DNA of 20,000 nt from an uncultured virus (IMG/VR IMGVR_UViG_3300023179_007799) (IMGVR_UViG_3300023179_007799); one strand, 5' to 3'. Counted from the first letter of the stretch, positions 10,394 through 20,000 are shown. The notes: generated from the letters alone by a model not told the origin. A program made the numbers and translations.

Positions 10394-10437
10394 TAAATAA
10401 AAAGGTAAGCATGTTTGACAGCTTACCTTTTTGTTTA
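10394..10437. terminator. Inverted repeat; probable terminator (possibly bidirectional) enclosing the -35 box of the dnaJ promoter
   Basis: AAAAAGGTAAGC (10399-10410) / GCTTACCTTTTT (10421-10432) is a perfect 12-bp stem, extendable by TAAAT/GTTTA with one G-U pair. Loop ATGTTTGACA. Confidence 0.7.
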
Positions 10438-10443
10438 TATAAT
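10415..10443 (+). promoter_or_regulatory. Consensus sigma70 promoter for dnaJ
   Basis: TTGACA (10415-10420), 17-nt spacer, TATAAT (10438-10443): a perfect consensus. Confidence 0.85.
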
Positions 10444-10452
10444 ATTAAGACC

Positions 10453-11298
10453 ATGCAAGACTTATATCAGATACTGGGCGTAAATAAAAACGCCACCGAA
10501 GAAGAAATCAAACAGGCCTACCGAAAGTTGGCCATGAAGCACCACCCAGATCGTGGTGGTGATGAAAAACAATTTCAAGAAATTAAAAATGCCTATGAAG
10601 TTCTGAGTGACCCTGTCCGGAGACAACAACACGATAACCCCGGCCCATTCCACCATCATCACGGCAACCATGAGCACAGTCATTTTGAATTCCATTTTGG
10701 CGGAGGTGGTCCACAGGATATCTTCGCACAGTTCTTTAATCAGGGGTTTGGGGCACATCCTTTCCAAAGACAACCAAGAAAAAACAAAGATCTCAGAGTC
10801 AGACTGGGAGTTGACCTTGCCAGTACACTGCAGTCACAGGAAAAAACCATCAGTGTACAGACCACCAAGGGGGATAGATTTACAGTGGATGTGAGTATTC
10901 CCCGTGGTATTGACGATGGAACAACTATCAAATTTTCTCAGCTGGGAGATAACTTTTTTGACACATTAACAAGAGGCGATCTATACGTCATAATTTCAGT
11001 TAATCCAGATCCCAGATATGAAATCGCCGGCAACAATCTCGTCACTCAGGTGGAAATTGATTCCCTACAGGCCATGCTGGGTTTGGAAACACAGGTCACT
11101 GGAATCGATGGCAGAGTATTCGCCATCCGAATACCACAGGGGTGCCAGTATGGAACAAGACTTGGGCTACAGGGGCAAGGCTTGTATCAGTTGAACAGCC
11201 ATATTCGAGGAGATTTAATCGTTGATATAAGAATTAAAACACCTGTGTTAAATGAAAAGCAGTTGGAGCTTCTTAGACAATTGCAGACCACGCTGTAA
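10453..11298 (+). CDS. dnaJ: DnaJ-class co-chaperone, type II/CbpA-like with no zinc finger (start corrected to ATG 10453, 281 aa)
   Basis: J-domain DLYQILGV...IKQAYRKLAMKHHPDRGG...AYEVLSD with HPD motif, G/F-rich linker, and DnaJ C-terminal domain (IPRG, GDLYV, G.G, RGDLIV). No CxxCxGxG repeats. Confidence 0.92.
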   Translation: MQDLYQILGVNKNATEEEIKQAYRKLAMKHHPDRGGDEKQFQEIKNAYEVLSDPVRRQQHDNPGPFHHHHGNHEHSHFEFHFGGGGPQDIFAQFFNQGFGAHPFQRQPRKNKDLRVRLGVDLASTLQSQEKTISVQTTKGDRFTVDVSIPRGIDDGTTIKFSQLGDNFFDTLTRGDLYVIISVNPDPRYEIAGNNLVTQVEIDSLQAMLGLETQVTGIDGRVFAIRIPQGCQYGTRLGLQGQGLYQLNSHIRGDLIVDIRIKTPVLNEKQLELLRQLQTTL

Positions 11299-11301
11299 AT
11301 A
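11294..11301 (+). promoter_or_regulatory. Putative late promoter (TGTAAATA) before clpA
   Basis: TAAATA core overlapping the dnaJ stop, about 32 nt before ATG 11333. Confidence 0.45.
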
Positions 11302-11332
11302 GTATTACCCTTACAAGGAACCAACGAGTAAC

Positions 11333-13621
11333 ATGCAATCAAATCCAGAAATTGAAAAGATCATCAGTAACGCTTGCGAAATCGCCACCGGTTATAATCA
11401 CAAATATGTAACACTGGAACATCTGTTGGCAGCATTGGTGGAGTTTCCCAACTTCAATAGTTTGCTGACAAAATTTGGCGTTGAAGATGACGAACTGCTT
11501 CGAGACATATATGATTATCTGGGCAAACAAGATCATCTGATTAAGCCCGAAGATGATCAAACAGCGCCACAAAAAACACACAGTCTGGAACGTGTGTTTA
11601 ACCGAGCATTCACTCAGGTGTTGTTCAGTGCCCGAGATCAAATGGAGCCCATTGATTTGTATCTGAGTATCTCTCAGGAGCAACAAAGCCACGCGGCTTA
11701 CTTTTTACTCAAGTGGGGCGTGGAACGAAAGAATTTCTTTGAATTTTATCAGAAAAAGACCAATGTGGTGGCCCGAGGTAAAAATGGTAAACCCAAGGCC
11801 GAATATGCTGACAAGATCCTGACCGAACACTGCACTAATCTCAACAGTCTGGTGGTGGAAGGTAAAATTGACCCAGTGATTGGGCGTGAATACGAATTGG
11901 AAGAAATTGCTCAGGTTCTGGCCAGACGCAGCAAGAGTAACGTGCTGATGATTGGTGATCCTGGCGTGGGCAAGACTGCCATCGCCGAGGGGCTGGCCTA
12001 CAAAATTGTTCACGGTGCTGTGCCTGAATATCTCAGAAGCTATACCGTGTACAGTCTGGAAATTGGAAGTTTGCTGGCTGGCAGCAAGTACCGCGGTGAG
12101 TTTGAAGAAAAACTCAAGGATGTGTTGGCTGCACTGGATGAAAAGGGCAACACCATCCTGTTCATTGACGAAGCGCATCAGATGCGTGGTGCAGGTGCCG
12201 GCAACAGCAGCAGTGTGGACTTTGCCAACATGATCAAACCTGCATTGTCCCGTGGCAAAATCAAAGTCATTGCCAGTACAACATTTGAAGAATACACGCA
12301 GAGTTTTGAAAAAGATCGTGCACTCATGCGTAGATTCTACAAACTCAGCATTGATGAGCCCAGCCCCGAAGTGGCCAAGGACATCCTGTATGGACTGCGC
12401 ATGCATTTTGAAAGGTTCCACGGTGGCACTATTACAGATGATGCCATTGAAGCAGCAGTGGATCTCAGTGTCAGATATCAAGCTGATCGACGTTTGCCAG
12501 ACAAGGCCATTGATCTGATCGACATGAGTTGTGCTGTGCTTAAAATCAAGAACCCAGAGTTTGTGGTGGATAAATCCGTAATCACAGACACCATCAGTCG
12601 AGCCACCAAGATTCCCATGGAAAACCTGACAGATCAGAAGACTGTGGACAATCTGGCAAACATGGAATCAACCATCAAGGAACGTCTGTATGGACAAAAC
12701 ACTGCAGTGGACACTGTGTTAGACAAGATCTACGTGGCCAAGGCTGGTATGAAGGGCCACAACAAACCCGTGGGTAGTTTCTTGTTCCTGGGACCCACTG
12801 GCACTGGTAAAACTGAACTGGCCAAATTGCTGAGTGAAACCATGAACATGTCTCTGCTGCGATATGACATGAGTGAATATCAGGAAAAGCACAGTGTGGC
12901 CAAGCTGATTGGTGCGCCACCAGGATATGTGGGGTATGAAGACTCCAATCTGGCAGGCGGACTGCTGATCAGCGATGTTGAACGCAACCCCCATGCAATT
13001 ATCCTGCTGGATGAAATTGAAAAAGCCCATCCCGACATCAGCAATCTGTTGTTACAAATCATGGACGAGGGTACCATTACTGCCAGCAATGGCAAAAAGG
13101 CCGATTGCCGCAATGCCATTGTGATCCTCACCAGCAACCTGGGCGCTGCTGACAACGAACTCAACAATATTGGTTTTGGTCGCAGTCTGGAAAAAACTGA
13201 TCAAGATGATGAGGCTGTCAAGAAGTTCTTCAAACCCGAGTTCCGCAATCGCCTGGACGCAGTGGTCAAATTTGGCAAGCTGGACAAGATCTCCATGAAG
13301 AAGATTGTGGTCAAGTATCTGAACGAACTCAACAATCTGTTGGCAGAAAAGAAGATCAAAATCAGAGCCAGTGAAGAAATGGTGGACCATCTGGTTGCTG
13401 AGGGGTTTGACAATAAGATGGGTGCCAGACCCTTGGCCAGAAAGATTGATAGCCTGATCAAAGTGCCAGTGAGTAAAAAGATCCTATTCGAAAATGTCGA
13501 AGCAGGCAGCGTTATTGCAGTGGATTACCATGAAGAACAGGTTAAGTTTGTGGTGATCCCGCCAACTCCAGTTGACCTTTTGACCAACAAGACTGTTGAT
13601 GAGCAGGGATTTATCGTATAG
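11333..13621 (+). CDS. clpA: ATP-dependent Clp protease ATP-binding subunit, ClpA-like (762 aa)
   Basis: Clp N-domain (HKYVTLEHLL). AAA1: GDPGVGKT, LFIDEAH, GSKYRGEFEE. AAA2: GPTGTGKT, LLDEIEKAHPD, GAPPGYVG. ClpP-docking loop IGF; PEFRNRLD; GARPL. No long ClpB middle domain. Confidence 0.93.
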   Translation: MQSNPEIEKIISNACEIATGYNHKYVTLEHLLAALVEFPNFNSLLTKFGVEDDELLRDIYDYLGKQDHLIKPEDDQTAPQKTHSLERVFNRAFTQVLFSARDQMEPIDLYLSISQEQQSHAAYFLLKWGVERKNFFEFYQKKTNVVARGKNGKPKAEYADKILTEHCTNLNSLVVEGKIDPVIGREYELEEIAQVLARRSKSNVLMIGDPGVGKTAIAEGLAYKIVHGAVPEYLRSYTVYSLEIGSLLAGSKYRGEFEEKLKDVLAALDEKGNTILFIDEAHQMRGAGAGNSSSVDFANMIKPALSRGKIKVIASTTFEEYTQSFEKDRALMRRFYKLSIDEPSPEVAKDILYGLRMHFERFHGGTITDDAIEAAVDLSVRYQADRRLPDKAIDLIDMSCAVLKIKNPEFVVDKSVITDTISRATKIPMENLTDQKTVDNLANMESTIKERLYGQNTAVDTVLDKIYVAKAGMKGHNKPVGSFLFLGPTGTGKTELAKLLSETMNMSLLRYDMSEYQEKHSVAKLIGAPPGYVGYEDSNLAGGLLISDVERNPHAIILLDEIEKAHPDISNLLLQIMDEGTITASNGKKADCRNAIVILTSNLGAADNELNNIGFGRSLEKTDQDDEAVKKFFKPEFRNRLDAVVKFGKLDKISMKKIVVKYLNELNNLLAEKKIKIRASEEMVDHLVAEGFDNKMGARPLARKIDSLIKVPVSKKILFENVEAGSVIAVDYHEEQVKFVVIPPTPVDLLTNKTVDEQGFIV

Positions 13622-13874: not shown

Positions 13875-14654
13875 ATGAGCAAGCAATCCAAGCGTATCAA
13901 GCCCAACCAACCACAAATGATTCAATCCATGCCAGCACAACCTGCTTACGATTTCAGCAAGGTGCATATTCACTTTGGTATTCCCTGCTACGGTGGACAG
14001 ATTACTGAGCCCTGCTTTACCAGTTTCCTGCGTTTTATTCTGATGGCACAGAAGGTTGGCCTACAATGGAGTCTGGATACCATGGTCAATGAAAGCCTGG
14101 TAACTCGTGCCCGTAACAATCTCATGGCCAAGATGATGACCAATGAAAAAGCCACACACTTCATGTTCATTGATGCTGATATCCGTTTCCAACCCGAAGC
14201 CATTCTGATGATGTTGTCTGCTGACAAGGATGTCATTGGTGGCCTGTATCCCAAGAAGGCCCTGCCAATTCAGTATGTGATCAACGTGCAGCCCGGCACA
14301 CAAATTATTAATGACGTATTTAAGGTGGACACCATGGGCACGGGTTTCATGATGTTCAAACGTCATGTTTATGAAAAGCTGTGTGCGGCTCATCCAGAAT
14401 GCAAGTATGTGGACGATGTTGGCCTGGGCAAGCAATACGAACCCACCATGTATTCAATCTTTGACACTCTGATTGATGAAAAGGGTCATTATTTGAGCGA
14501 AGACTGGACTTTCTGCCGTCGCTGGGCCGCACTGGGTGGTGAAACCTATGCTCATGCCAAGGTACTGCTGAACCACAGTGGGCACTATGAATTTGCTGGC
14601 GATCTGAGTGTGTTGACTGGCAACAAAAATGTAGATCAAGGAGCAGAAGAATGA
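13875..14654 (+). CDS. GT-A fold glycosyltransferase-like protein (259 aa)
   Basis: GIPCYGG, ESLVTRARN, DxD motif THFMFIDADI, GG.YPKK, GTGFMM..R, and YLSEDWTFCRRW...GG, a motif set typical of phage GT-A proteins. Confidence 0.8.
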   Translation: MSKQSKRIKPNQPQMIQSMPAQPAYDFSKVHIHFGIPCYGGQITEPCFTSFLRFILMAQKVGLQWSLDTMVNESLVTRARNNLMAKMMTNEKATHFMFIDADIRFQPEAILMMLSADKDVIGGLYPKKALPIQYVINVQPGTQIINDVFKVDTMGTGFMMFKRHVYEKLCAAHPECKYVDDVGLGKQYEPTMYSIFDTLIDEKGHYLSEDWTFCRRWAALGGETYAHAKVLLNHSGHYEFAGDLSVLTGNKNVDQGAEE

Positions 14655-15097
14655 GCACAGAAACCCTAAATTTTAAAGTGACACTTAGTGGAACGTTCTG
14701 GGACAAACGTCCAAAGTTTTCAATCTGGATTGATGACACCAAAATCCAGGATGGGGAAATCACCAGTGCCGAGCATCAGACTATTGAATTTTCTCAGGAA
14801 CTTTCCGAGACCGATCACCAACTCAAGATCAGACTAGAGAATAAAGAAGATACTGATGTTGTGCAGGAAAACGGAAGTATTATCAAAGACATGTTACTAA
14901 ACATTGAAGATATCTCGATTGATGACATCCCCCTGGGACATCAACTTTGGAAATCCACATACTATCCTGACGAAAAAAAGATGTTTAATGGTGAAGAAAT
15001 TGAATCAATATCTGGATGCGTAAATCTGGGCTGGAATGGTTCATATGTAGTAAATTTTTCCAGTCCGTTCTATATCTGGTTGTTAGAAAATTCATAA
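14651..15097 (+). CDS. Hypothetical beta-rich protein (148 aa)
   Basis: ATGA overlap and AGGAG SD. Alternating hydrophobic strands; ends NLGWNG...FSSPFYIWLLEN. Confidence 0.75.
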   Translation: MSTETLNFKVTLSGTFWDKRPKFSIWIDDTKIQDGEITSAEHQTIEFSQELSETDHQLKIRLENKEDTDVVQENGSIIKDMLLNIEDISIDDIPLGHQLWKSTYYPDEKKMFNGEEIESISGCVNLGWNGSYVVNFSSPFYIWLLENS

Positions 15098-15882: not shown

Positions 15883-16440
15883 ATGAATATGCGCCAATTA
15901 CTAGCAGCCATGGATAGGGTCACTGATAACCCTCAATCGGTGCCCCAGCAGGATAATTTACTCCGAGATCTGAGCGAAACAGCGGCGGATATGGACATCG
16001 AGTGGCAACTCAGAGAAATGTGGCAGCAATTTCAGGAAGATGATCTGGGCACAGCGGCCAAACGTCCCAGTCGTAAAGGCAGTCGCCATGCTCGTGGGCA
16101 TGAGCCACTGCCACAATATAAAAAAGTCAGTGAAATGGGAGCAAATAGTGCTGCGACCACCAAACCCAACCCGGTGGCGGCTACAGCCAACCCCAATGCT
16201 GATCCAGCTTATAAAGCAGCCATGACTGCGACCAGTGCCATCAAAAGTGCCACAGGCAGCACAGCATCAACAGCCAATTTGGCTCGAGCACTGGATTCAG
16301 CCAGCCAGGGCAAACCCGTTGCTGCTGCCGATGCCAAGGCCGTGGAACCAGTCATGGACATTGTCAGCAAAGCAGCAACCAACCCCCAGCTGGCCAATCA
16401 GTTTAAAACATTGGCACAGCAGGCCAAGAACATCAAATAA
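15883..16440 (+). CDS. Hypothetical Ala/Gln-rich protein, possible virion/internal protein (185 aa)
   Basis: Starts 3 nt after the previous stop; MNMRQLLAAMD start; Ala-rich C-terminal half. Confidence 0.7.
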   Translation: MNMRQLLAAMDRVTDNPQSVPQQDNLLRDLSETAADMDIEWQLREMWQQFQEDDLGTAAKRPSRKGSRHARGHEPLPQYKKVSEMGANSAATTKPNPVAATANPNADPAYKAAMTATSAIKSATGSTASTANLARALDSASQGKPVAAADAKAVEPVMDIVSKAATNPQLANQFKTLAQQAKNIK

Positions 16441-16890
16441 TTACTCGTCTGAAGACTCGTCGGGCACCTGGAAGACTTGTCGTAGTTCCTGATCCAGCGT
16501 TCGAATAAACTTCTTGACTGCCATCATACTCTTGAGTGGCCTGGTACTTCGACGATCGTCAACATAGATCACAAACTTTCCAGCAGTGTCTTTCTTGACC
16601 TGGATATTAGTGGCATTGTCAGGACCAATGACATCTGAATAGATGGATTCTGCATCACTCAGAGTGTCAAACCCCAGCAAAATGCTGTCACCACTGCGAC
16701 CAATCTTGACCAATTTCTTGGGAAAAATTCCACTGGTGTTGACCTTGCGCATGATCAAGGCTGCAATCCGGACATTGTTTTCTGTGACCTGAATCAGCCC
16801 TTGCTCGTCAACGACAAAGTCTTCACCCTCAAATGGTCCGGCGAAAGGATCTGACACCAGATTGACCACGTGTTCCATAGTATAATCCAT
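16441..16890 (-). CDS. Hypothetical protein (149 aa), the only supported minus-strand gene
   Basis: Occupies a stretch with no long + strand ORF, has a normal composition and its own sigma70-like promoter. Its stop abuts the stop of the convergent gene. Confidence 0.8.
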   Translation of the reverse strand: MDYTMEHVVNLVSDPFAGPFEGEDFVVDEQGLIQVTENNVRIAALIMRKVNTSGIFPKKLVKIGRSGDSILLGFDTLSDAESIYSDVIGPDNATNIQVKKDTAGKFVIYVDDRRSTRPLKSMMAVKKFIRTLDQELRQVFQVPDESSDE

Positions 16891-16922
16891 AATTTAGACT
16901 CAAATAGTAATTGGGGATTGTA

Positions 16923-16951
16923 ATAATACACTATGATGTAGTTGTTGTCAA
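16923..16951 (-). promoter_or_regulatory. sigma70-type promoter for the minus-strand gene
   Basis: On the minus strand: TTGACA (16951-16946), 17-nt spacer, TATTAT (16928-16923), about 33 nt before ATG 16890. Confidence 0.75.
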
Positions 16952-16963
16952 CCCATCTGTCAG

Positions 16964-16978
16964 GATAAATATTAAATA
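16964..16978 (+). promoter_or_regulatory. Putative late promoter(s) GATAAATA / ATTAAATA for the fibre gene
   Basis: Two TAAATA cores 28-35 nt before ATG 17006. Confidence 0.55.
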
Positions 16979-17005
16979 GATTAAATTAAGGTGCTCCAGA
17001 GTAAT

Positions 17006-20000
17006 ATGCCAGTAAAAAATCAGACCATCACGCAAATCAAACCCGGTGTATATACCTTTACAGTTTCCCCAGGAATCAGCCAGATAGATATAGATCTGTG
17101 GGGCGCTGGCGGTGCTGCTGGCAGTGCGGGCCAATCCACACAAGTTGTCACAGGCCAACAACAGGTTGGTACCCGAGTGTCAGGACAACGAGTAGTGGGA
17201 CAGCGTGTCGTGGGACAACGAGTCGTTGGACAACGGCAGGTTGGGCAAAATCAGGTGGGGTTTTCCACACAACAAGTCCTGGTGTCAGCCGAAGTTCCTA
17301 CCATCAATGTCTCTGCAGGCAGTCAGTCATTTTCATCAAGTGGGAGTTTTACACTTCCATTGGGCGTTACCAATTACAGCATATCTGCCGGTGGCGGTGG
17401 TGGTGGCGGTGGTGGTGGACACAGTGCCACCACCTGTGGTGATAGATCTGGCCATCACGGAGGAACTGGTGGTGCGGGCGGAAGTTTTTCTTACTCTTAT
17501 ACCAGTCCACCCACACAGTCCAATTCAATAGATTTCACAGTGGGTCAGGGCGGTGCGGGCGGTACTGGTGGTGAATCAGGAAGCTCTGGTGGGTCAACTG
17601 TTGTGTTAATTAATGGCACAACTGTGGGCACCGCAGCAGGGGGTGGCGGGGGCACTGGTTATCCGTATGCTGGTGGCAAAGTCACCAACGGGGCTGCTGG
17701 CGCCGGCGGTGGTGGTGGCGCTGGTGGCGCCTATGGCCTTGGTGCCAGCAAAGGTGCTGATGCCAGTGGATCACCTGGTGGCAATGGTAGTGTCGGCATC
17801 AGTTGGGGTGCATCAAACATTCCAGGATCCCCAGCAGTGTATCGAACTGAAACCACTCCAGTGTATGAGCCAGTATTTGAGCCTGTTTACGAAAACATTC
17901 TAGAAAATATTTACCAAGACATTATAGAAGCAGTATATGCGCCAACCTACGCCACTGTGCCTGGTGCCCCAGGTGCAGCTGGCGGTCCGGGGGGTTATGC
18001 TGCAGTTTCATTAACCGTTGAGGTGGGTGATCAGATAATTGTTGTGGTGGGTGACAGTGGTCGATCTGCCCGAGGCGGCGCCAGCACATACTCAACTTTT
18101 AATTACAGTGGTGGTAGTTCGGGCGCACCCATCAAAGGTGGAGCAGGTGGCGGTGGCGGTGGTGCCAGTTTTGTCCTGTTGAACGGCAATGTGGTGGCTG
18201 TGGCTGCCGGCGGTGGCGGTGGTGGTGGCGGCGGGGGCGGAGACAGACCCGAAGACCGACTGCCTGGTCTGGCAGGGCTTCCTGGAACCAATAATGGATT
18301 GGGCGCTGGCATACCAGGCCTTGGGCAGAATTCAGCCGCTGGCGTTGCCACTGGCGGTGCTGGTGGCGGTGGTTACTGGGCTGGGTCTGCCGGCACTTCT
18401 GGTAAGTCTGGCACTGGTGGCAGTGGTGGGACCAACTATGGCAAAGCCGTTGATTCAGGAACCAGCACCGCACCAGGTGGGCTGACTTTGGACAGCTACC
18501 CCAAACAAAATCCTGGATACGCTGGGAATCCAGGTGCTGCGGTAATAAGCATATATAAATCATTCAGTCTGGCGATTAAAAACTCCAATCAATGGAAAAG
18601 AGCCGACCGTGCCTGGGTCAAAATCAGTGGCCAATGGAGAGAAATTTACAATGGATGGACCAAGGTCAATGGGGTCTGGAAGGAAATTGCATACAGTTCA
18701 GGACCCGTGGCCGCTCAACCTACCTATCAACTGACCGCCGACCGAGCCGCAGTAAACGAAGGCAGCACAGTGGAATTTAGATTGACAACCACTGGCGTTC
18801 CGGCCGGCACACAAATCGCTTATTCAGCCACGGGGATCGCCGCCAGTGATCTGACATCAGGAACACTATCTGGTTCGTTTATTGCGGGTTTAAGAGAAAC
18901 AACATCTTTTGGAATCAGAGCCAATCAGACCACCAATGGACCCAGAACATTGACTGTTGTTCTGGATGGTTCCAGGGCCACAGGCAGTTGTATCGTCAAT
19001 GACACTTCAAGAACTCCCACATATGGAGTGACTCCTGGTACCATCAGTGTCAACGAAGGTAGCAGCCTGACATTTAATGTGTCGGGATCAGACATCACAG
19101 ATGGCACATACTATTGGACTATTACCAATGCTGGTGATTTTGGCACAAGGTCAGGGGCTGTCATAATTACAAACAATACTGGATCTTTTTCAGTCACACC
19201 CACTACCGATTCCACCACAGAAGGTGCAGAAACATTTACTGCATCTCTGAGATCCGGCAGCACGTCTGGGCCAGTTTTGGCAACAAGTGCAACAGTGACT
19301 ATACTGGACACCAGTGTCACTCCTGTGCCCCCACCTCCGGTGCCCCCACCACCCGAACCACCGCCACCACCTCCGCCAGCAGCCGCATATCAATTAAGCA
19401 ACAGTGTGGCATCGGTTAACGAAGGTGGAGTGGTGATGTTTACATTGGTGACTCAAAATGTCTCTGATGGAACGCAGGTGCCTTATACCATATCAGGTGC
19501 CGGCATCACCTCTGATGATTTCGATTCTATGCAAGTGAATGGATCCAGTATATCCACAGCCTTGACTGGCAATTTCATTATTCAGAATGGTGTTTCTACT
19601 CTGAGAGTGGTGGTTGCCAATGATCTGTTGATTGAAAATTCAGAAACATTTACGGTGGCATTGGACAATGGGCTCAGCAGTGTCTCAGTGTCAATTGTCA
19701 ACACCACCAGATCAGAACCACAAAGTCTGACATTTTCATACTCTCCTAATGTTCAGACCTGGACTGTGCCAGTGGGAGTGACCAGTGTCAACGTAAATCT
19801 GACTGGTGGTGGTGGCGGTGGTGGCGGGTCAGACAGCAGCGGTAGAGGATATCCAGGAGCTGCTGGTGACCGTGTGGCAGGAACCTTGTCAGTAGCGCCT
19901 GGTGACACACTCACCATATATGTTGGCGGTGGTGGTGCTGGTGGACTTAGTGCTCAGCGTGGGACCGGCGCTGGTGCTGGTGGTGGCGTCGGAATTTTTG
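17006..20000 (+). CDS. Large glycine-rich tail fibre/adhesin-like protein (at least 998 codons, 3'-partial; absent from the ORF track)
   Basis: Manual translation from ATG 17006 (MPVKNQTITQIKPGVYTFTVSPGISQIDIDLWGAGG...) has no stop to base 20000. Three Gly-rich domains, Trp repeats (QWKRADRAWVKISGQWREIYNGWTKVNGVWKEI), three Calx-beta-like domains ((S/A)VNEG...EGAETF) and a polyproline linker. Confidence 0.9.
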   Translation, partial: MPVKNQTITQIKPGVYTFTVSPGISQIDIDLWGAGGAAGSAGQSTQVVTGQQQVGTRVSGQRVVGQRVVGQRVVGQRQVGQNQVGFSTQQVLVSAEVPTINVSAGSQSFSSSGSFTLPLGVTNYSISAGGGGGGGGGGHSATTCGDRSGHHGGTGGAGGSFSYSYTSPPTQSNSIDFTVGQGGAGGTGGESGSSGGSTVVLINGTTVGTAAGGGGGTGYPYAGGKVTNGAAGAGGGGGAGGAYGLGASKGADASGSPGGNGSVGISWGASNIPGSPAVYRTETTPVYEPVFEPVYENILENIYQDIIEAVYAPTYATVPGAPGAAGGPGGYAAVSLTVEVGDQIIVVVGDSGRSARGGASTYSTFNYSGGSSGAPIKGGAGGGGGGASFVLLNGNVVAVAAGGGGGGGGGGGDRPEDRLPGLAGLPGTNNGLGAGIPGLGQNSAAGVATGGAGGGGYWAGSAGTSGKSGTGGSGGTNYGKAVDSGTSTAPGGLTLDSYPKQNPGYAGNPGAAVISIYKSFSLAIKNSNQWKRADRAWVKISGQWREIYNGWTKVNGVWKEIAYSSGPVAAQPTYQLTADRAAVNEGSTVEFRLTTTGVPAGTQIAYSATGIAASDLTSGTLSGSFIAGLRETTSFGIRANQTTNGPRTLTVVLDGSRATGSCIVNDTSRTPTYGVTPGTISVNEGSSLTFNVSGSDITDGTYYWTITNAGDFGTRSGAVIITNNTGSFSVTPTTDSTTEGAETFTASLRSGSTSGPVLATSATVTILDTSVTPVPPPPVPPPPEPPPPPPPAAAYQLSNSVASVNEGGVVMFTLVTQNVSDGTQVPYTISGAGITSDDFDSMQVNGSSISTALTGNFIIQNGVSTLRVVVANDLLIENSETFTVALDNGLSSVSVSIVNTTRSEPQSLTFSYSPNVQTWTVPVGVTSVNVNLTGGGGGGGGSDSSGRGYPGAAGDRVAGTLSVAPGDTLTIYVGGGGAGGLSAQRGTGAGAGGGVGIF
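17153..17272 (+). repeat. 8 x 15-bp coding repeat (GQRVV-type pentapeptides)
   Basis: GQQQV GTRVS GQRVV GQRVV GQRVV GQRQV GQNQV GFSTQ. Confidence 0.85.
17858..17953 (+). repeat. 8 x 12-bp coding repeat (PVYE-type tetrapeptides)
   Basis: PVYE PVFE PVYE NILE NIYQ DIIE AVYA PTYA. Confidence 0.8.
19322..19379 (+). repeat. Polyproline linker (PVPPPPVPPPPEPPPPPPP)
   Basis: C-rich run in the fibre reading frame between the second and third Calx-beta-like domains. Confidence 0.85.

What the first reader, a model, noticed from the sequence alone, without database searches (positions are those of the whole stretch)
17006..18560. Nested glycine-rich domain on a matched 8x5 / 8x4 repeat stalk in a phage adhesin
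Seen: the first Gly-rich domain begins (YTFTVSPGISQIDIDLWGAGGAAG) and is interrupted by 8 pentapeptides (G-Q-R-V-V type, basic, 17153-17272). A complete second Gly-rich domain follows (about 17318-17806, SFSSSGSFTLPLGV...GGNGSVGISW), then 8 tetrapeptides (P-V-Y-E type, acidic, 17858-17953). The first domain then resumes (GAAGGPGGYAAVSLTVEVGDQIIVVVG). Inference: equal repeat counts, complementary charges (R vs E/D) and a 5-versus-4 register suggest the arrays pair as an antiparallel two-stranded beta-ribbon with one Gly bulge per unit. That would be a length-tunable stalk projecting an inserted receptor-binding domain from a loop of its parent domain. Known: Gly-rich polyglycine-II domains form the T-even gp38 adhesins. 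I do not know this nested stalk architecture as described.
Basis: partly seen in the sequence, partly recalled or inferred. Interest (0 to 1): 0.85.

Follow-up and report, generated by a model that had tools for sequence, protein, structure and literature searches.

The report
Matched-repeat stalk carrying a nested fibre domain
A phage fibre-like protein has one glycine-rich binding-type domain held out from a loop of another on a long two-armed stalk, and across relatives the two arms always lengthen and shorten together, which points to a length-adjustable stalk with an exchangeable tip.

Summary
Residues 50-89 are 8 pentapeptides, residues 285-316 are 8 tetrapeptides, and a complete Gly-rich domain lies between them. 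The outer domain is split by this unit.

Relatives confirm the split. With both flanking motifs present, 31 of 64 proteins have them 9-13 residues apart and 29 have them 74 or more apart.

The pairing idea passes its own test. In 26 rows (20 distinct length pairs) the ascending arm scales with the descending arm: slope 1.22±0.02, r 0.997. A slope of 1 is rejected; 5:4 is not. All 17 non-zero phylogenetic contrasts share the same sign.

A second lineage uses 7:6 repeats and changes in steps of exactly 7:6. The rule is therefore n+1 residues opposite an even n, as expected for one bulge per unit.

AlphaFold2 draws both arms as single long strands at modest confidence.

The tip is absent, swapped among several domain types, interrupted by a HINT domain, or divided between two genes.

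Not shown: residue contacts, oligomeric state, virion location, receptor binding. Charge complementarity is not general (12 of 25).

I class it as a new variant of known phage Gly-rich fibre domains.

The parts
17006..20000 (+). 5' 998 codons of a 1266-aa fibre-like protein (P0002); the ORF runs off the window end
17006..17122 (+). Parent domain, N-terminal piece (aa1-39): three beta strands and the first Gly strand, WGAGGAAG
   Evidence: strands E4-10, E14-19, E24-32. Structural alignment of the parent spans model residues 3..519 against LTK/ALK TG domains, Z 14-14.8.
17123..17323 (+). Ascending arm (aa40-106). It contains the 8 G-initial pentapeptides at 17153-17272.
   Evidence: translation; lag-5 autocorrelation, 0 of 20000 shuffles reach it. 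(one strand, E45-94). (G-rich and Q-rich composition).
17318..17806 (+). Nested TNF-like plus Gly-rich domain (aa105-267), carried at the tip
   Evidence: Pfam PF21722, E 1.1e-11. Model 103-270 aligns to Pam3 fibre 7ypx_A with Z 15.1, rmsd 2.5 A, 150 residues, 31% identity.
17807..17959 (+). Descending arm (aa268-318). It contains the 8 tetrapeptides at 17858-17953.
   Evidence: translation; lag-4 and lag-8 autocorrelation. (strand E278-318). (Pro-rich and aromatic-rich composition).
17960..18565 (+). Parent domain, resumed (aa319-520). It begins with the second Gly strand, GAPGAAGGPGGY.
   Evidence: invariant Gly columns; pLDDT 81-97.
18566..18700 (+). Conserved W/K-rich repeat stretch (NQWKRADRAWVKISGQWREIYNGWTKVNGVWKEI) that follows the parent domain
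   Evidence: W530 and K539 nearly invariant; phrog_21772 and phrog_25859, aa524-589; the same motif in other viral fibre-like ORFs.
18716..19705 (+). Run of Ig-like or Calx-beta-like modules, interrupted by a poly-proline linker at 19320-19371
   Evidence: Calx-beta 23.6 bits, below the cut-off of 27; Ig_3 weak. (Pro-codon repeats).. The boundaries are approximate.
19718..20000 (+). Start of the C-terminal Gly-rich domain (aa~905 onward; the rest lies beyond the window)
   Evidence: phrog_863, 356, 11737; tail category. (P0002 aa911-1124 is 80% identical to the tip domain of P0004).

Best explanation
The ORF encodes a large phage fibre-like protein. Its N-terminal TNF-like plus polyglycine ('TG'-type) domain is split at the turn between its first two glycine strands.

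From that turn the chain runs out along a Gly/Gln/Val/Thr-rich arm built of 5-residue units. It then forms a complete second TG-type domain and returns along a Pro/aromatic/Glu-rich arm built of 4-residue units, after which the parent domain resumes.

I propose that the two arms pair antiparallel as a long beta-ribbon. Each even-length unit of the descending strand (4 residues here, 6 in a sister lineage) would face a unit one residue longer in the ascending strand (5 or 7). The extra residue would be taken up by one Gly-containing bulge per unit.

The ribbon would then be a stalk of set length, roughly 13 nm here if 41 strand residues rise 3.3 A each. It would hold an exchangeable second binding-type module beyond the distal face of the parent domain. 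Stalk length would change by gain or loss of matched unit pairs, and specificity by swapping the tip.

Shown: the split, the nesting, both folds (on predicted models), the co-variation of arm lengths and the tip exchange.
Inferred: ribbon geometry, the bulge, the length in nm, virion location and receptor binding.
For: (1) The split is real.
- Of 177 related proteins, 64 have both flanking motifs. In 31 the gap is 9-13 aa (an uninterrupted domain), in 4 it is 14-22 aa, and in 29 it is 74 aa or more.
- In the model, the parent aligns as one domain across residues 3..519 to LTK/ALK TG domains: Z 14.0-14.8, 169-178 residues, rmsd 3.1-3.3 A.
- The insert, residues 103-270, aligns to Pam3 fibre gp24: Z 15.1.

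(2) The arms co-vary.
- 26 rows give slope 1.225 and r 0.998. The 20 distinct length pairs give slope 1.224±0.021, with p(slope=1) = 3e-9 and p(slope=1.25) = 0.22.
- Independent contrasts on 26 tips give slope 1.202±0.016, r 0.998, with 17 contrasts of the same sign and 0 opposite.
- On 19 tips the slope is 1.186, with 13 of the same sign and 0 opposite.

(3) There are two registers, both n+1 opposite an even n.
- Window-type proteins have autocorrelation periods of 5/10 against 4/8.
- All six hairpin-type proteins tested have periods 7 and 6.
- Hairpin-type arm lengths are (52,38), (59,44), (73,56), (87,68) and (100,79), which are steps of 7:6 or multiples.

(4) Composition fits a bulged strand facing a proline-protected strand.
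- Gly is 14.2% in ascending arms and 2.5% in descending arms.
- Pro is 3.5% against 12.2%.
- Tyr+Phe is 1.9% against 13.7%.
- Both arms are rich in Val and Thr.

(5) AlphaFold2 makes each arm one continuous strand.
- Window protein: E45-94 and E278-318.
- P0017: E45-98 and E124-171. The difference of 6 residues equals its 6 units.
- No other strand in either model exceeds 9 residues, so the two long strands can only be laddered with each other.

(6) The tip is modular.
- P0004 has nearly the same stalk as P0002 but a different, larger tip domain. That tip is 80% identical over 216 aa to P0002's own C-terminal domain.
- Tips are absent in the hairpin-type proteins.
- P0043 and P0047 have non-Gly tips.
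- L007 has a HINT domain at the apex.

(7) A natural two-gene version exists.
- In L001 the gene is cut inside the tip domain by TAA TAG. An AAGG lies 9 nt before the next ATG.
- The ascending arm (50 aa) is on one chain and the descending arm (35 aa) on the other. The pair still falls on the regression line.

(8) The context is phage.
- The window encodes a GH19 endolysin, a holin, a spanin-like protein and a virion protein.
- Homologues lie on IMG/VR contigs of 35-219 kb.
- In Pam3 gp24 the distal ends of the Gly strands are the proposed receptor-binding sites (PMC9608196, passages read).
Against: - No coordinates or contact map were available, so strand-to-strand pairing is deduced from the DSSP strings, not observed.
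- Stalk confidence is modest. Block pLDDT falls 83→51 along the ascending arm and is 48-81 along the descending arm. It is 56-78 in P0017.
- Arm boundaries rest on my own motif rules. These add a constant offset: the shortest stalks measure 20:12 and 23:15.
- Two split proteins were unclassifiable (P0012, P0058). P0043 and P0047 failed the rule altogether.
- Some ascending arms hold non-repeat stretches. P0007 sits 6 residues off the line.
- P0006 and P0010 differ by 28:24, not 30:24.
- Charge complementarity, part of the original argument, holds in only 12 of 25 rows.
- A free two-stranded ribbon of 40-124 residues per strand with no hydrophobic core would be unusual. It may need oligomerisation.
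- No evidence shows that the protein is in the virion or binds a receptor.
- No match was found in the 50,697-record phage collection, by DNA or by protein.
Confidence: 0.7

Rival explanations
1. The arms do pair, but not as a free two-stranded ribbon. The parent TG domains trimerise as in Pam3 gp24 or TNF, and the three hairpins bundle into a six-stranded trimeric shaft, as in other phage fibre shafts. The tip domains would form a second trimeric head.
For: - Pam3 gp24, the best structural match of the nested domain (Z 15.1), is a trimer (PMC9608196, passages read).
- From general knowledge, phage fibres are usually trimeric.
- A lone ribbon this long, with little hydrophobic surface, seems fragile.
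- This reading explains the matched arm lengths just as well.
Against: - In Pam3 gp24 an N-terminal helical bundle contributes most of the trimerisation, and the TNF-like and Gly-rich domains make only loose contacts. This protein starts directly with the beta domain.
- Neither face of the arms is clearly hydrophobic: Val, Tyr and Phe are mixed with Thr, Gln and Glu.
- Oligomerisation was not tested here.
Confidence: 0.25
2. The two arrays are flexible low-complexity tethers that do not pair in any fixed way. They merely let the inserted domain swing away from its parent.
For: - The sequence is repetitive and low in complexity.
- pLDDT is low towards the tip.
Against: - Unpaired tethers have no reason to keep a length ratio with r 0.997, or to change in exact 7:6 steps.
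- They have no reason to keep opposite compositions on the two arms in every lineage.
- They could not hold two separate polypeptides together in the split-gene form.
- The composition (Val, Thr, Ile, Tyr) favours beta strands.
- The three identical GQRVV units differ at synonymous sites, which points to selection on the peptide.
Confidence: 0.05
3. The architecture is as described, but the protein is not a receptor-binding fibre. It could be a capsid or tail decoration protein, or another surface-exposed structural protein. The stalk would then serve spacing or bridging rather than host recognition.
For: - There is no direct evidence for virion position or receptor binding.
- The gene lies beside lysis and chaperone genes rather than recognisable tail genes.
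- The protein also carries Ig-like or Calx-beta-like modules and a PA14-like end. Such modules also occur in decoration proteins (that they occur there is from general knowledge).
Against: - The nearest solved structures are a phage fibre and a phage tail tip.
- The C-terminal Gly-rich domain hits tail-category PHROGs.
- Some relatives carry the gp38 adhesin family PF05268 (precomputed Pfam column).
- Tip-domain shuffling is the pattern expected of host-range determinants.
Confidence: 0.12

Closest known systems
Cyanophage Pam3 tail fibre gp24 (PDB 7ypx, 7yfw): TNF-like plus glycine-rich domain
   Same: - It is the best structural match of the nested domain: Z 15.1, rmsd 2.5 A over 150 residues, 31% identity. 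Foldseek gives E 5.8e-4.
- It has a beta-sandwich from which Gly-rich strands run out and back.
- The distal ends of those strands are the proposed receptor sites (PMC9608196, passages read).
   Different: - gp24 is a single 280-residue chain with an N-terminal helical trimerisation shaft.
- It has no domain nested in a Gly-strand turn and no repeat stalk.
- Here the domain occurs three times in one protein, and one copy sits inside another.
ALK/LTK TG (TNF-like plus glycine-rich, polyglycine-II) extracellular domain (e.g. PDB 7nx0, 7nx1, 7mzy, 7lrz)
   Same: It is the best structural match of the parent domain. The alignment spans both of the parent's separated pieces, model residues 3..519: Z 14.0-14.8, 169-178 residues, 26-29% identity.
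   Different: - These are animal receptor kinases that bind cytokine ligands.
- They have no stalk insertion at the first Gly-strand turn.
- The likeness is one of fold.
T-even-type gp38 adhesin (Pfam PF05268; phage S16 gp38)
   Same: - It is a Gly-rich polyglycine-II domain used for host recognition. The Pam3 paper names gp38 as a structural relative of gp24.
- Some distant relatives of this protein carry PF05268 at their C-terminus.
   Different: - PF05268 does not match the window protein.
- From recall, gp38 is a small separate protein that caps the gp37 fibre.
- It has no nested domain and no stalk.
Streptococcal antigen I/II adhesins (SpaP, BspA/BspC, AspA): A-region and P-region hairpin stalk with the V domain at the tip
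   Same: The design logic is the same. Two repeat arrays flank a tip domain, run antiparallel and associate into a long stalk that presents the variable domain (PMC6586375, passages read).
   Different: - There the arms are an alpha-helix (Ala-rich repeats) and a polyproline-II helix (Pro-rich repeats).
- Here both arms are strand-like with an n+1:n register.
- The stalk here grows out of a loop of another folded domain, and the host is a phage protein.
- There is no sequence relationship.
Mycobacteriophage Bxb1 tail-tip Gly-rich proteins (PDB 9d93, chains Qa/Qb)
   Same: It has the same Gly-rich fold as the nested domain: Z 14.2, 154 residues, 32% identity. It is located at a phage tail tip, according to the entry title.
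   Different: I did not read a paper on this structure. The one search for it listed only an unrelated paper. Nothing in the match covers the stalk.

Membership tests
Pfam PF21722 Gly_rich_2 (glycine-rich domain) | Sequence match above the curated gathering score | tested here: met
   Nested domain aa112-262: E 1.1e-11, 45.7 bits against a cut-off of 24.3, on P0001. On the full protein the score is 30.7 bits.
TG-type fold (TNF-like beta-sandwich plus polyglycine-II strand lattice, as in Pam3 gp24 and ALK/LTK) | Beta-sandwich with Gly strands running out and back, superposable on solved TG domains | tested here: met
   Tested on an AlphaFold2 model (mean pLDDT 79.6; parent core blocks 81-97). 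The nested domain aligns to 7ypx_A with Z 15.1. The parent aligns to 7nx0_B with Z 14.8 and to 7nx1 with Z 14.3, spanning residues 3..519. This is a predicted structure, not a solved one.
TG-type fold | The parent domain is one domain interrupted at the first Gly-strand turn | tested here: met
   In 31 of the 64 proteins with both motifs, WGAGG and GGY are only 9-13 aa apart. The window protein has 292 aa there.
T-even gp38 adhesin (Pfam PF05268) | Sequence match to PF05268 | tested here: not met
   PF05268 gave no hit at E<=0.1 on P0001 or at E<=0.01 on P0002. It appears only in more distant relatives such as P0014 and P0029-P0039 (precomputed column).
T-even gp38 adhesin | Separate small protein that docks on the tip of a trimeric gp37-type fibre | not testable with these tools
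   The protein is 1266 aa and multi-domain. No partner fibre was identified.
Antigen I/II-type hairpin stalk | One arm is an Ala-rich alpha-helix and the other a Pro-rich polyproline-II helix | tested here: not met
   Across the 25 proteins the ascending arms are rich in Gly, Gln, Val and Thr (Ala 4.6%), and both window arms are modelled as strands. Only the design logic is shared.
Paired bulged beta-ribbon stalk (proposed here) | The two arms change length together in an n+1:n ratio | tested here: met
   Slope 1.224±0.021 and r 0.997 on 20 distinct pairs. Contrasts are 17 of 17 same sign. Periods are 5:4 and 7:6.
Paired bulged beta-ribbon stalk (proposed here) | Direct backbone hydrogen bonding between the two arms | tested here: inconclusive
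   DSSP strings show two long strands in each model. No coordinates or contacts were available, and pLDDT is about 50-80.
Trimeric phage fibre shaft | Three chains intertwined around a common axis | not tested
   No oligomer prediction of the whole N-terminal region was run. It would be 3 x 540 residues, above the tool's size limit.

The most novel reading that the evidence does not exclude
The stalk is a self-sufficient, sequence-programmed beta 'zipper'. It would be a two-stranded ribbon whose strands recognise each other through an n+1:n repeat register (5:4 or 7:6, one Gly bulge per unit). It would be rigid enough to serve as a spacer of 4 to 40 nm. It would pair strongly enough to hold two separate polypeptides together in the natural split-gene forms. 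That would make it a strand-based counterpart of the coiled coil. Phages would use it to mount exchangeable receptor-binding heads, and it could be reused as a length-tunable rigid linker or heterodimerisation module in protein design.
Probability: 0.35. Interest if true: 0.85.

Novelty: new variant of a known kind. Interest (0 to 1): 0.72.

Why it matters
Gly-rich TG-type domains are known receptor-recognition modules of phage fibres. How phages vary their reach and swap their specificity is a practical question for host-range prediction and for phage engineering.

This family shows a compact solution that I did not find described. Three searches looked for it: PF21722/Gly_rich_2 found 0 papers, a two-stranded ribbon as a domain insertion in phage receptor-binding proteins found 0, and beta-ribbon/bulge/tail-fibre repeats listed 5, none relevant by title or abstract.

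- A second head is mounted on a repeat stalk that grows from the distal turn of the first head.
- Stalk length spans about a ten-fold range across relatives, from 12 to 124 residues in the descending arm.
- The tip is freely exchanged, lost, split between two genes, or invaded by a HINT domain.

The strict n+1:n rule in two independent registers is a rare case where sequence statistics alone nearly fix a structural model. It gives a clear, cheap target for structure determination.

If the ribbon stands alone, it is also a new kind of programmable rigid spacer.

Tried and rejected
- **Own genome:** none is held for this window.
- **Phage genome collection:** megablast of 16000-20000 and tblastn of aa1-565 both found no match. 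No named phage relative is therefore available.
- **Complex prediction:** I sent the ascending arm (aa40-106) against the descending arm (aa268-320) as two chains with alignment A1. The result was 'no answer': ipSAE 0.22 and 0.23, below the mark of 0.32, and the controls were not run. This counts neither for nor against pairing.
- **The search for related loci with alignment A1:** the tool chose pure glycine patterns and confirmed nothing. A 96-aa query from the W/K repeat region worked. P0044 as query confirmed nothing.
- **The search of earlier findings, by place and by sequence:** nothing was on record.
- **Literature:** see Why it matters. Three searches turned up no description of this architecture. 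One search failed on syntax and was rephrased.
- **Pore-forming-toxin-like stem hairpin:** considered and rejected. There is no alternating hydrophobic pattern, Pro recurs every 4 or 6 residues, and a 150-240 aa domain sits at the hairpin tip.
- **Polyproline-II or alpha-helical arms:** considered and rejected. Periods of 4, 5 and 7 do not fit a 3-residue repeat, and the Pro, Gly and beta-branched composition argues against helices.
- **Charge pairing as the basis of arm recognition:** rejected as a general rule (12 of 25 rows).
- **Locating matched deletions in close relatives (P0006 against P0010):** not pursued, because gap placement within repeats is ambiguous.
- **A tree from two joined segments:** set up but never built. 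A tree on one contiguous segment was used instead.


Full report
**What is in the window**

The frame at 16991..19999 is open to the end of the window. Read from the ATG at 17006 it gives 998 residues without a stop. A database search returned the complete protein, P0002, of 1266 aa.

- 17153-17272 encodes eight G-initial pentapeptides, GQQQV to GFSTQ.
- 17318-17806 encodes a complete glycine-rich domain ending in GISW.
- 17858-17953 encodes eight tetrapeptides, PVYE to PTYA.
- The next residues, TVPGAPGAAGGPGGYAAVSLTVEVGD, continue a second glycine-rich domain. That domain began at the N-terminus with YTFTV...IDIDLWGAGGAAG.

The periodicity is not chance. Lag-5 identity is 0.66 in the first array and lag-4 identity is 0.43 in the second. 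Neither value was reached in 20000 shuffles at any lag from 2 to 10.

At DNA level only the central units are similar: period 15 x 3.5 copies and period 12 x 2.2 copies. The three identical GQRVV units differ at synonymous positions. The peptide repeat is therefore maintained rather than freshly slipped.

**Context**

No genome is held for the window. The phage genome collection has no match by DNA or by protein.

The neighbours are nevertheless phage-like:
- a GH19 endolysin with a peptidoglycan-binding domain;
- a holin-like protein and a spanin-like protein;
- a virion structural protein (phrog_12928);
- a DnaJ and a ClpB-like ATPase.

Homologues lie on IMG/VR viral contigs of 35-219 kb and on metagenome contigs of up to 344 kb.

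**The outer domain is one domain, interrupted**

I scanned 177 related proteins from the two protein searches. In 64 of them I found both the WGAGG motif and the downstream GGY...GD motif.
- In 31 the two motifs are 9-13 residues apart.
- In 4 they are 14-22 apart.
- In 29 they are 74 or more apart. These 29 include P0002 itself, one mis-anchored row (P0012) and one probably spurious row (P0111).

The short form, for example WGAGGGSGRGGARGGGGGYA in P0021, is the ordinary out-and-back pair of glycine strands. The window protein has 292 residues at that turn.

An AlphaFold2 model of aa1-540 was built from a 26-row alignment and has mean pLDDT 79.6. Structural alignment of this model agrees.
- The parent aligns as a single domain across residues 3..519 to the TNF-like plus glycine-rich domains of LTK and ALK: Z 14.0-14.8, 169-178 residues, rmsd 3.1-3.3 A.
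- Residues 103-270 align separately to the cyanophage Pam3 fibre gp24 (Z 15.1, rmsd 2.5 A, 150 residues, 31% identity) and to a Bxb1 tail-tip chain (Z 14.2).
- Pfam places the nested domain in Gly_rich_2.

In Pam3 gp24 the glycine strands run along the fibre axis, and their distal ends are the proposed receptor sites (PMC9608196, passages read). By inference the stalk leaves the distal face of the parent domain.

**Do the two arrays pair? The comparative test**

I measured both arms with fixed motif rules. The ascending arm runs from WGAGGxxG to the first strand of the tip domain, or to the apex motif. The descending arm runs from the last strand of the tip, or from the apex motif, to ten residues before GGY.

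- A slightly relaxed rule gave 25 proteins, plus one two-gene pair.
- P0012 and P0058 could not be classified.
- P0043 and P0047 failed the rule because their tips are of other kinds.

The 26 rows give slope 1.225 and r 0.998. The 20 distinct length pairs give slope 1.224±0.021 and r 0.997. Equality of the arms is rejected (p 3e-9), and 5:4 is not (p 0.22).

Relatives share lengths by descent, so I also computed independent contrasts.
- On a tree of the conserved parent core with 26 tips and 93 columns: slope 1.202±0.016, r 0.998, with 17 non-zero contrasts all of the same sign.
- On a 19-tip tree with 236 columns: slope 1.186±0.017, with 13 contrasts of the same sign and none opposite.

**A second register**

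The hairpin-type relatives (P0011, P0015-P0018, P0048, and later P0022 and P0041) have no tip domain, only a 32-52 residue cap. They do not use 5:4.
- Their ascending arm is a heptad, VQTGTxx.
- Their descending arm is a hexad, PVYxxQ.
- Autocorrelation peaks at 7 and 6 in all six proteins tested.
- Their arm lengths are (52,38), (59,44), (73,56), (87,68) and (100,79). These are steps of 7:6, 14:12, 14:12 and 13:11, with a slope of 1.170.

In two different registers, then, the descending unit is even (4 or 6) and the ascending unit is one residue longer (5 or 7).
- An even unit keeps the two-residue alternation of a strand in phase from repeat to repeat.
- One extra residue per unit on the facing strand is what a periodic bulge would give.

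Composition fits this picture.
- Ascending arms are 14.2% Gly, about one per unit, against 2.5% in descending arms.
- Descending arms are 12.2% Pro and 13.7% Tyr+Phe, against 3.5% and 1.9% in ascending arms.

From general structural knowledge, a proline every fourth or sixth residue fits the non-hydrogen-bonded positions of a two-stranded ribbon. It would also block further edge pairing. That point is inference.

**Predicted structures**

In the window model the only long strands are E45-94 and E278-318. All other strands are 9 residues or shorter. In the whole-protein model of P0017 (30-row alignment, mean pLDDT 72.1) the long strands are E45-98 and E124-171. They differ by six residues, and the protein has six units.

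DSSP assigns strand only to laddered residues, so each pair of long strands must be laddered with each other. I had no coordinates to list the contacts. Confidence in the stalk is modest:
- block means are 83→51 going up and 48→81 coming down in the window model;
- they are 56-78 in P0017.

**The tip is a cassette**

- P0004 has an N-terminus and stalk that read almost the same as P0002's but carries a different, larger glycine-rich domain at the tip. That domain is 80% identical over 216 residues to P0002's own C-terminal domain.
- Other relatives carry about 145-160 residue Gly_rich_2 tips, about 210-240 residue tips, non-glycine tips (P0043, P0047) or no tip at all.
- In L007 the apex of a (52,38) hairpin holds a HINT domain: PT-HINT E 2.4e-12, Hint_2 E 9.5e-9.
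- In L001 the gene is divided inside the tip domain. The first ORF ends in TAA TAG, an AAGG lies nine bases before the next ATG, and the frames differ.
- In that locus one chain carries the parent's N-terminal strands and a 50-residue ascending arm. The other chain carries a 35-residue descending arm and the rest of the parent. The pair lies on the regression line.
- Short N-pieces (P0059, P0060, P0061, P0070) and long C-pieces (P0042, P0044, P0046) are separate 50%-identity cluster representatives. The split is therefore not a single sequencing error.

Two chains that must rebuild one parent domain and one tip domain have only the arms running between those domains. This is the strongest biological hint that the arms bind each other.

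**What is not supported or not shown**

- Charge complementarity (R against E/D) is real here, +4 against -6, but holds in only 12 of 25 rows.
- The two-chain complex prediction gave no verdict and carries no weight either way.
- Oligomeric state is open. Pam3 gp24 is a trimer, and three hairpins could bundle into a six-stranded shaft.
- Virion location and receptor binding are inferred from the fold's relatives, from tail-category PHROG hits on the C-terminal domain and from the shuffling pattern.

**Comparison with what is known**

- The domains belong to the known phage and ALK-type glycine-rich fold.
- The window protein is not a gp38 (PF05268) member by sequence.
- The nearest design analogue is the streptococcal antigen I/II stalk. 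There an Ala-rich helix and a Pro-rich polyproline-II helix pair to present the V domain (PMC6586375, passages read). The secondary structures, the register rule and the origin from a loop of a folded domain all differ.
- Three literature searches found no description of this architecture. Subscription journals are largely outside that library.

**Verdict**

I rate this a new variant of a known kind.

| Claim | Confidence |
|---|---|
| Split and nesting of the two domains | about 0.95 |
| The arms form a matched paired structure | about 0.85 |
| That structure is a bulged two-stranded ribbon, free or bundled | about 0.65 |
| It serves as a length-set stalk for an exchangeable binding head | about 0.55 |

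Noticed in passing
L001:4095-7311 (IMG/VR contig, 89.6 kb): The homologous gene is split into two cistrons inside the tip domain. The first ORF ends TAA TAG, an AAGG lies 9 nt before the next ATG, and the frame differs. The ascending and descending arms therefore lie on separate polypeptides. Short N-pieces (P0059, P0060, P0061, P0070) and long C-pieces (P0042, P0044, P0046) recur as separate cluster representatives.
   Followed up: partly
L007:2104-2673 (IMG/VR contig, 218.9 kb): A HINT (intein-like) domain sits at the apex of a hairpin-type stalk with arms of 52 and 38 residues. Pfam gives PT-HINT E 2.4e-12, Hint_2 E 9.5e-9 and Hint E 2.9e-7. It starts with Cys and ends in HN followed by Gly. 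Whether it splices is unknown.
   Followed up: partly
P0022, P0041, P0042, P0046 and L001 (parent domain, after the GD.I.V.VG strand): A second nested insert of roughly 150-160 residues sits in a later loop of the parent domain. It contains a DDSGSM / DRSGS-type motif. Pfam reported no family for it in P0041 at E<=0.01. P0012, P0013, P0020, P0023 and P0025 instead carry a further Gly-rich domain in a later loop, without a long stalk. The parent domain therefore tolerates insertions at several loops.
   Followed up: partly
window 10411-13621: Adjacent phage-borne chaperone genes. One is a full DnaJ (DnaJ plus DnaJ_C, E 2e-24 and 8e-32). The other is a ClpB-like double AAA+ ATPase (phrog_4871 E 3e-242; Clp_N, AAA_2, ClpB_D2-small).
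   Followed up: no
window 19320-19371: A poly-proline linker (PVPPPPVPPPPEPPPPPPP) lies between Ig-like or Calx-beta-like modules of the same protein.
   Followed up: no
P0002 aa911-1266 (begins at window 19736, mostly beyond the window): The C-terminal Gly-rich domain is 80% identical to the stalk-tip domain of P0004, so the same module is used at a chain end or at a stalk tip. It is followed by a PA14-like end (E 0.0034, 17.6 bits, below the cut-off of 24).
   Followed up: partly
window 18566-18700; L003-L006: The W/K repeat stretch (WVKISGQW..GWTKVNGVWKEI) after the parent domain recurs as 'VKVNGVWK'-type repeats in otherwise unrelated fibre-like ORFs on other viral contigs. It may be a shared joint or trimerisation motif.
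   Followed up: no
window 14651-15097: A small ORF (148 aa) matches the carbohydrate-binding module CBM60 exactly at the gathering score (28.2 bits, E 2.7e-6).
   Followed up: no
P0005 (N-terminally cut by its contig end): This close relative (62% identity over the 886-aa main alignment) has a descending array of about 17 tetrapeptides instead of 8. Its ascending arm is lost at the contig edge, so the prediction of about 17 pentapeptides could not be checked.
   Followed up: no
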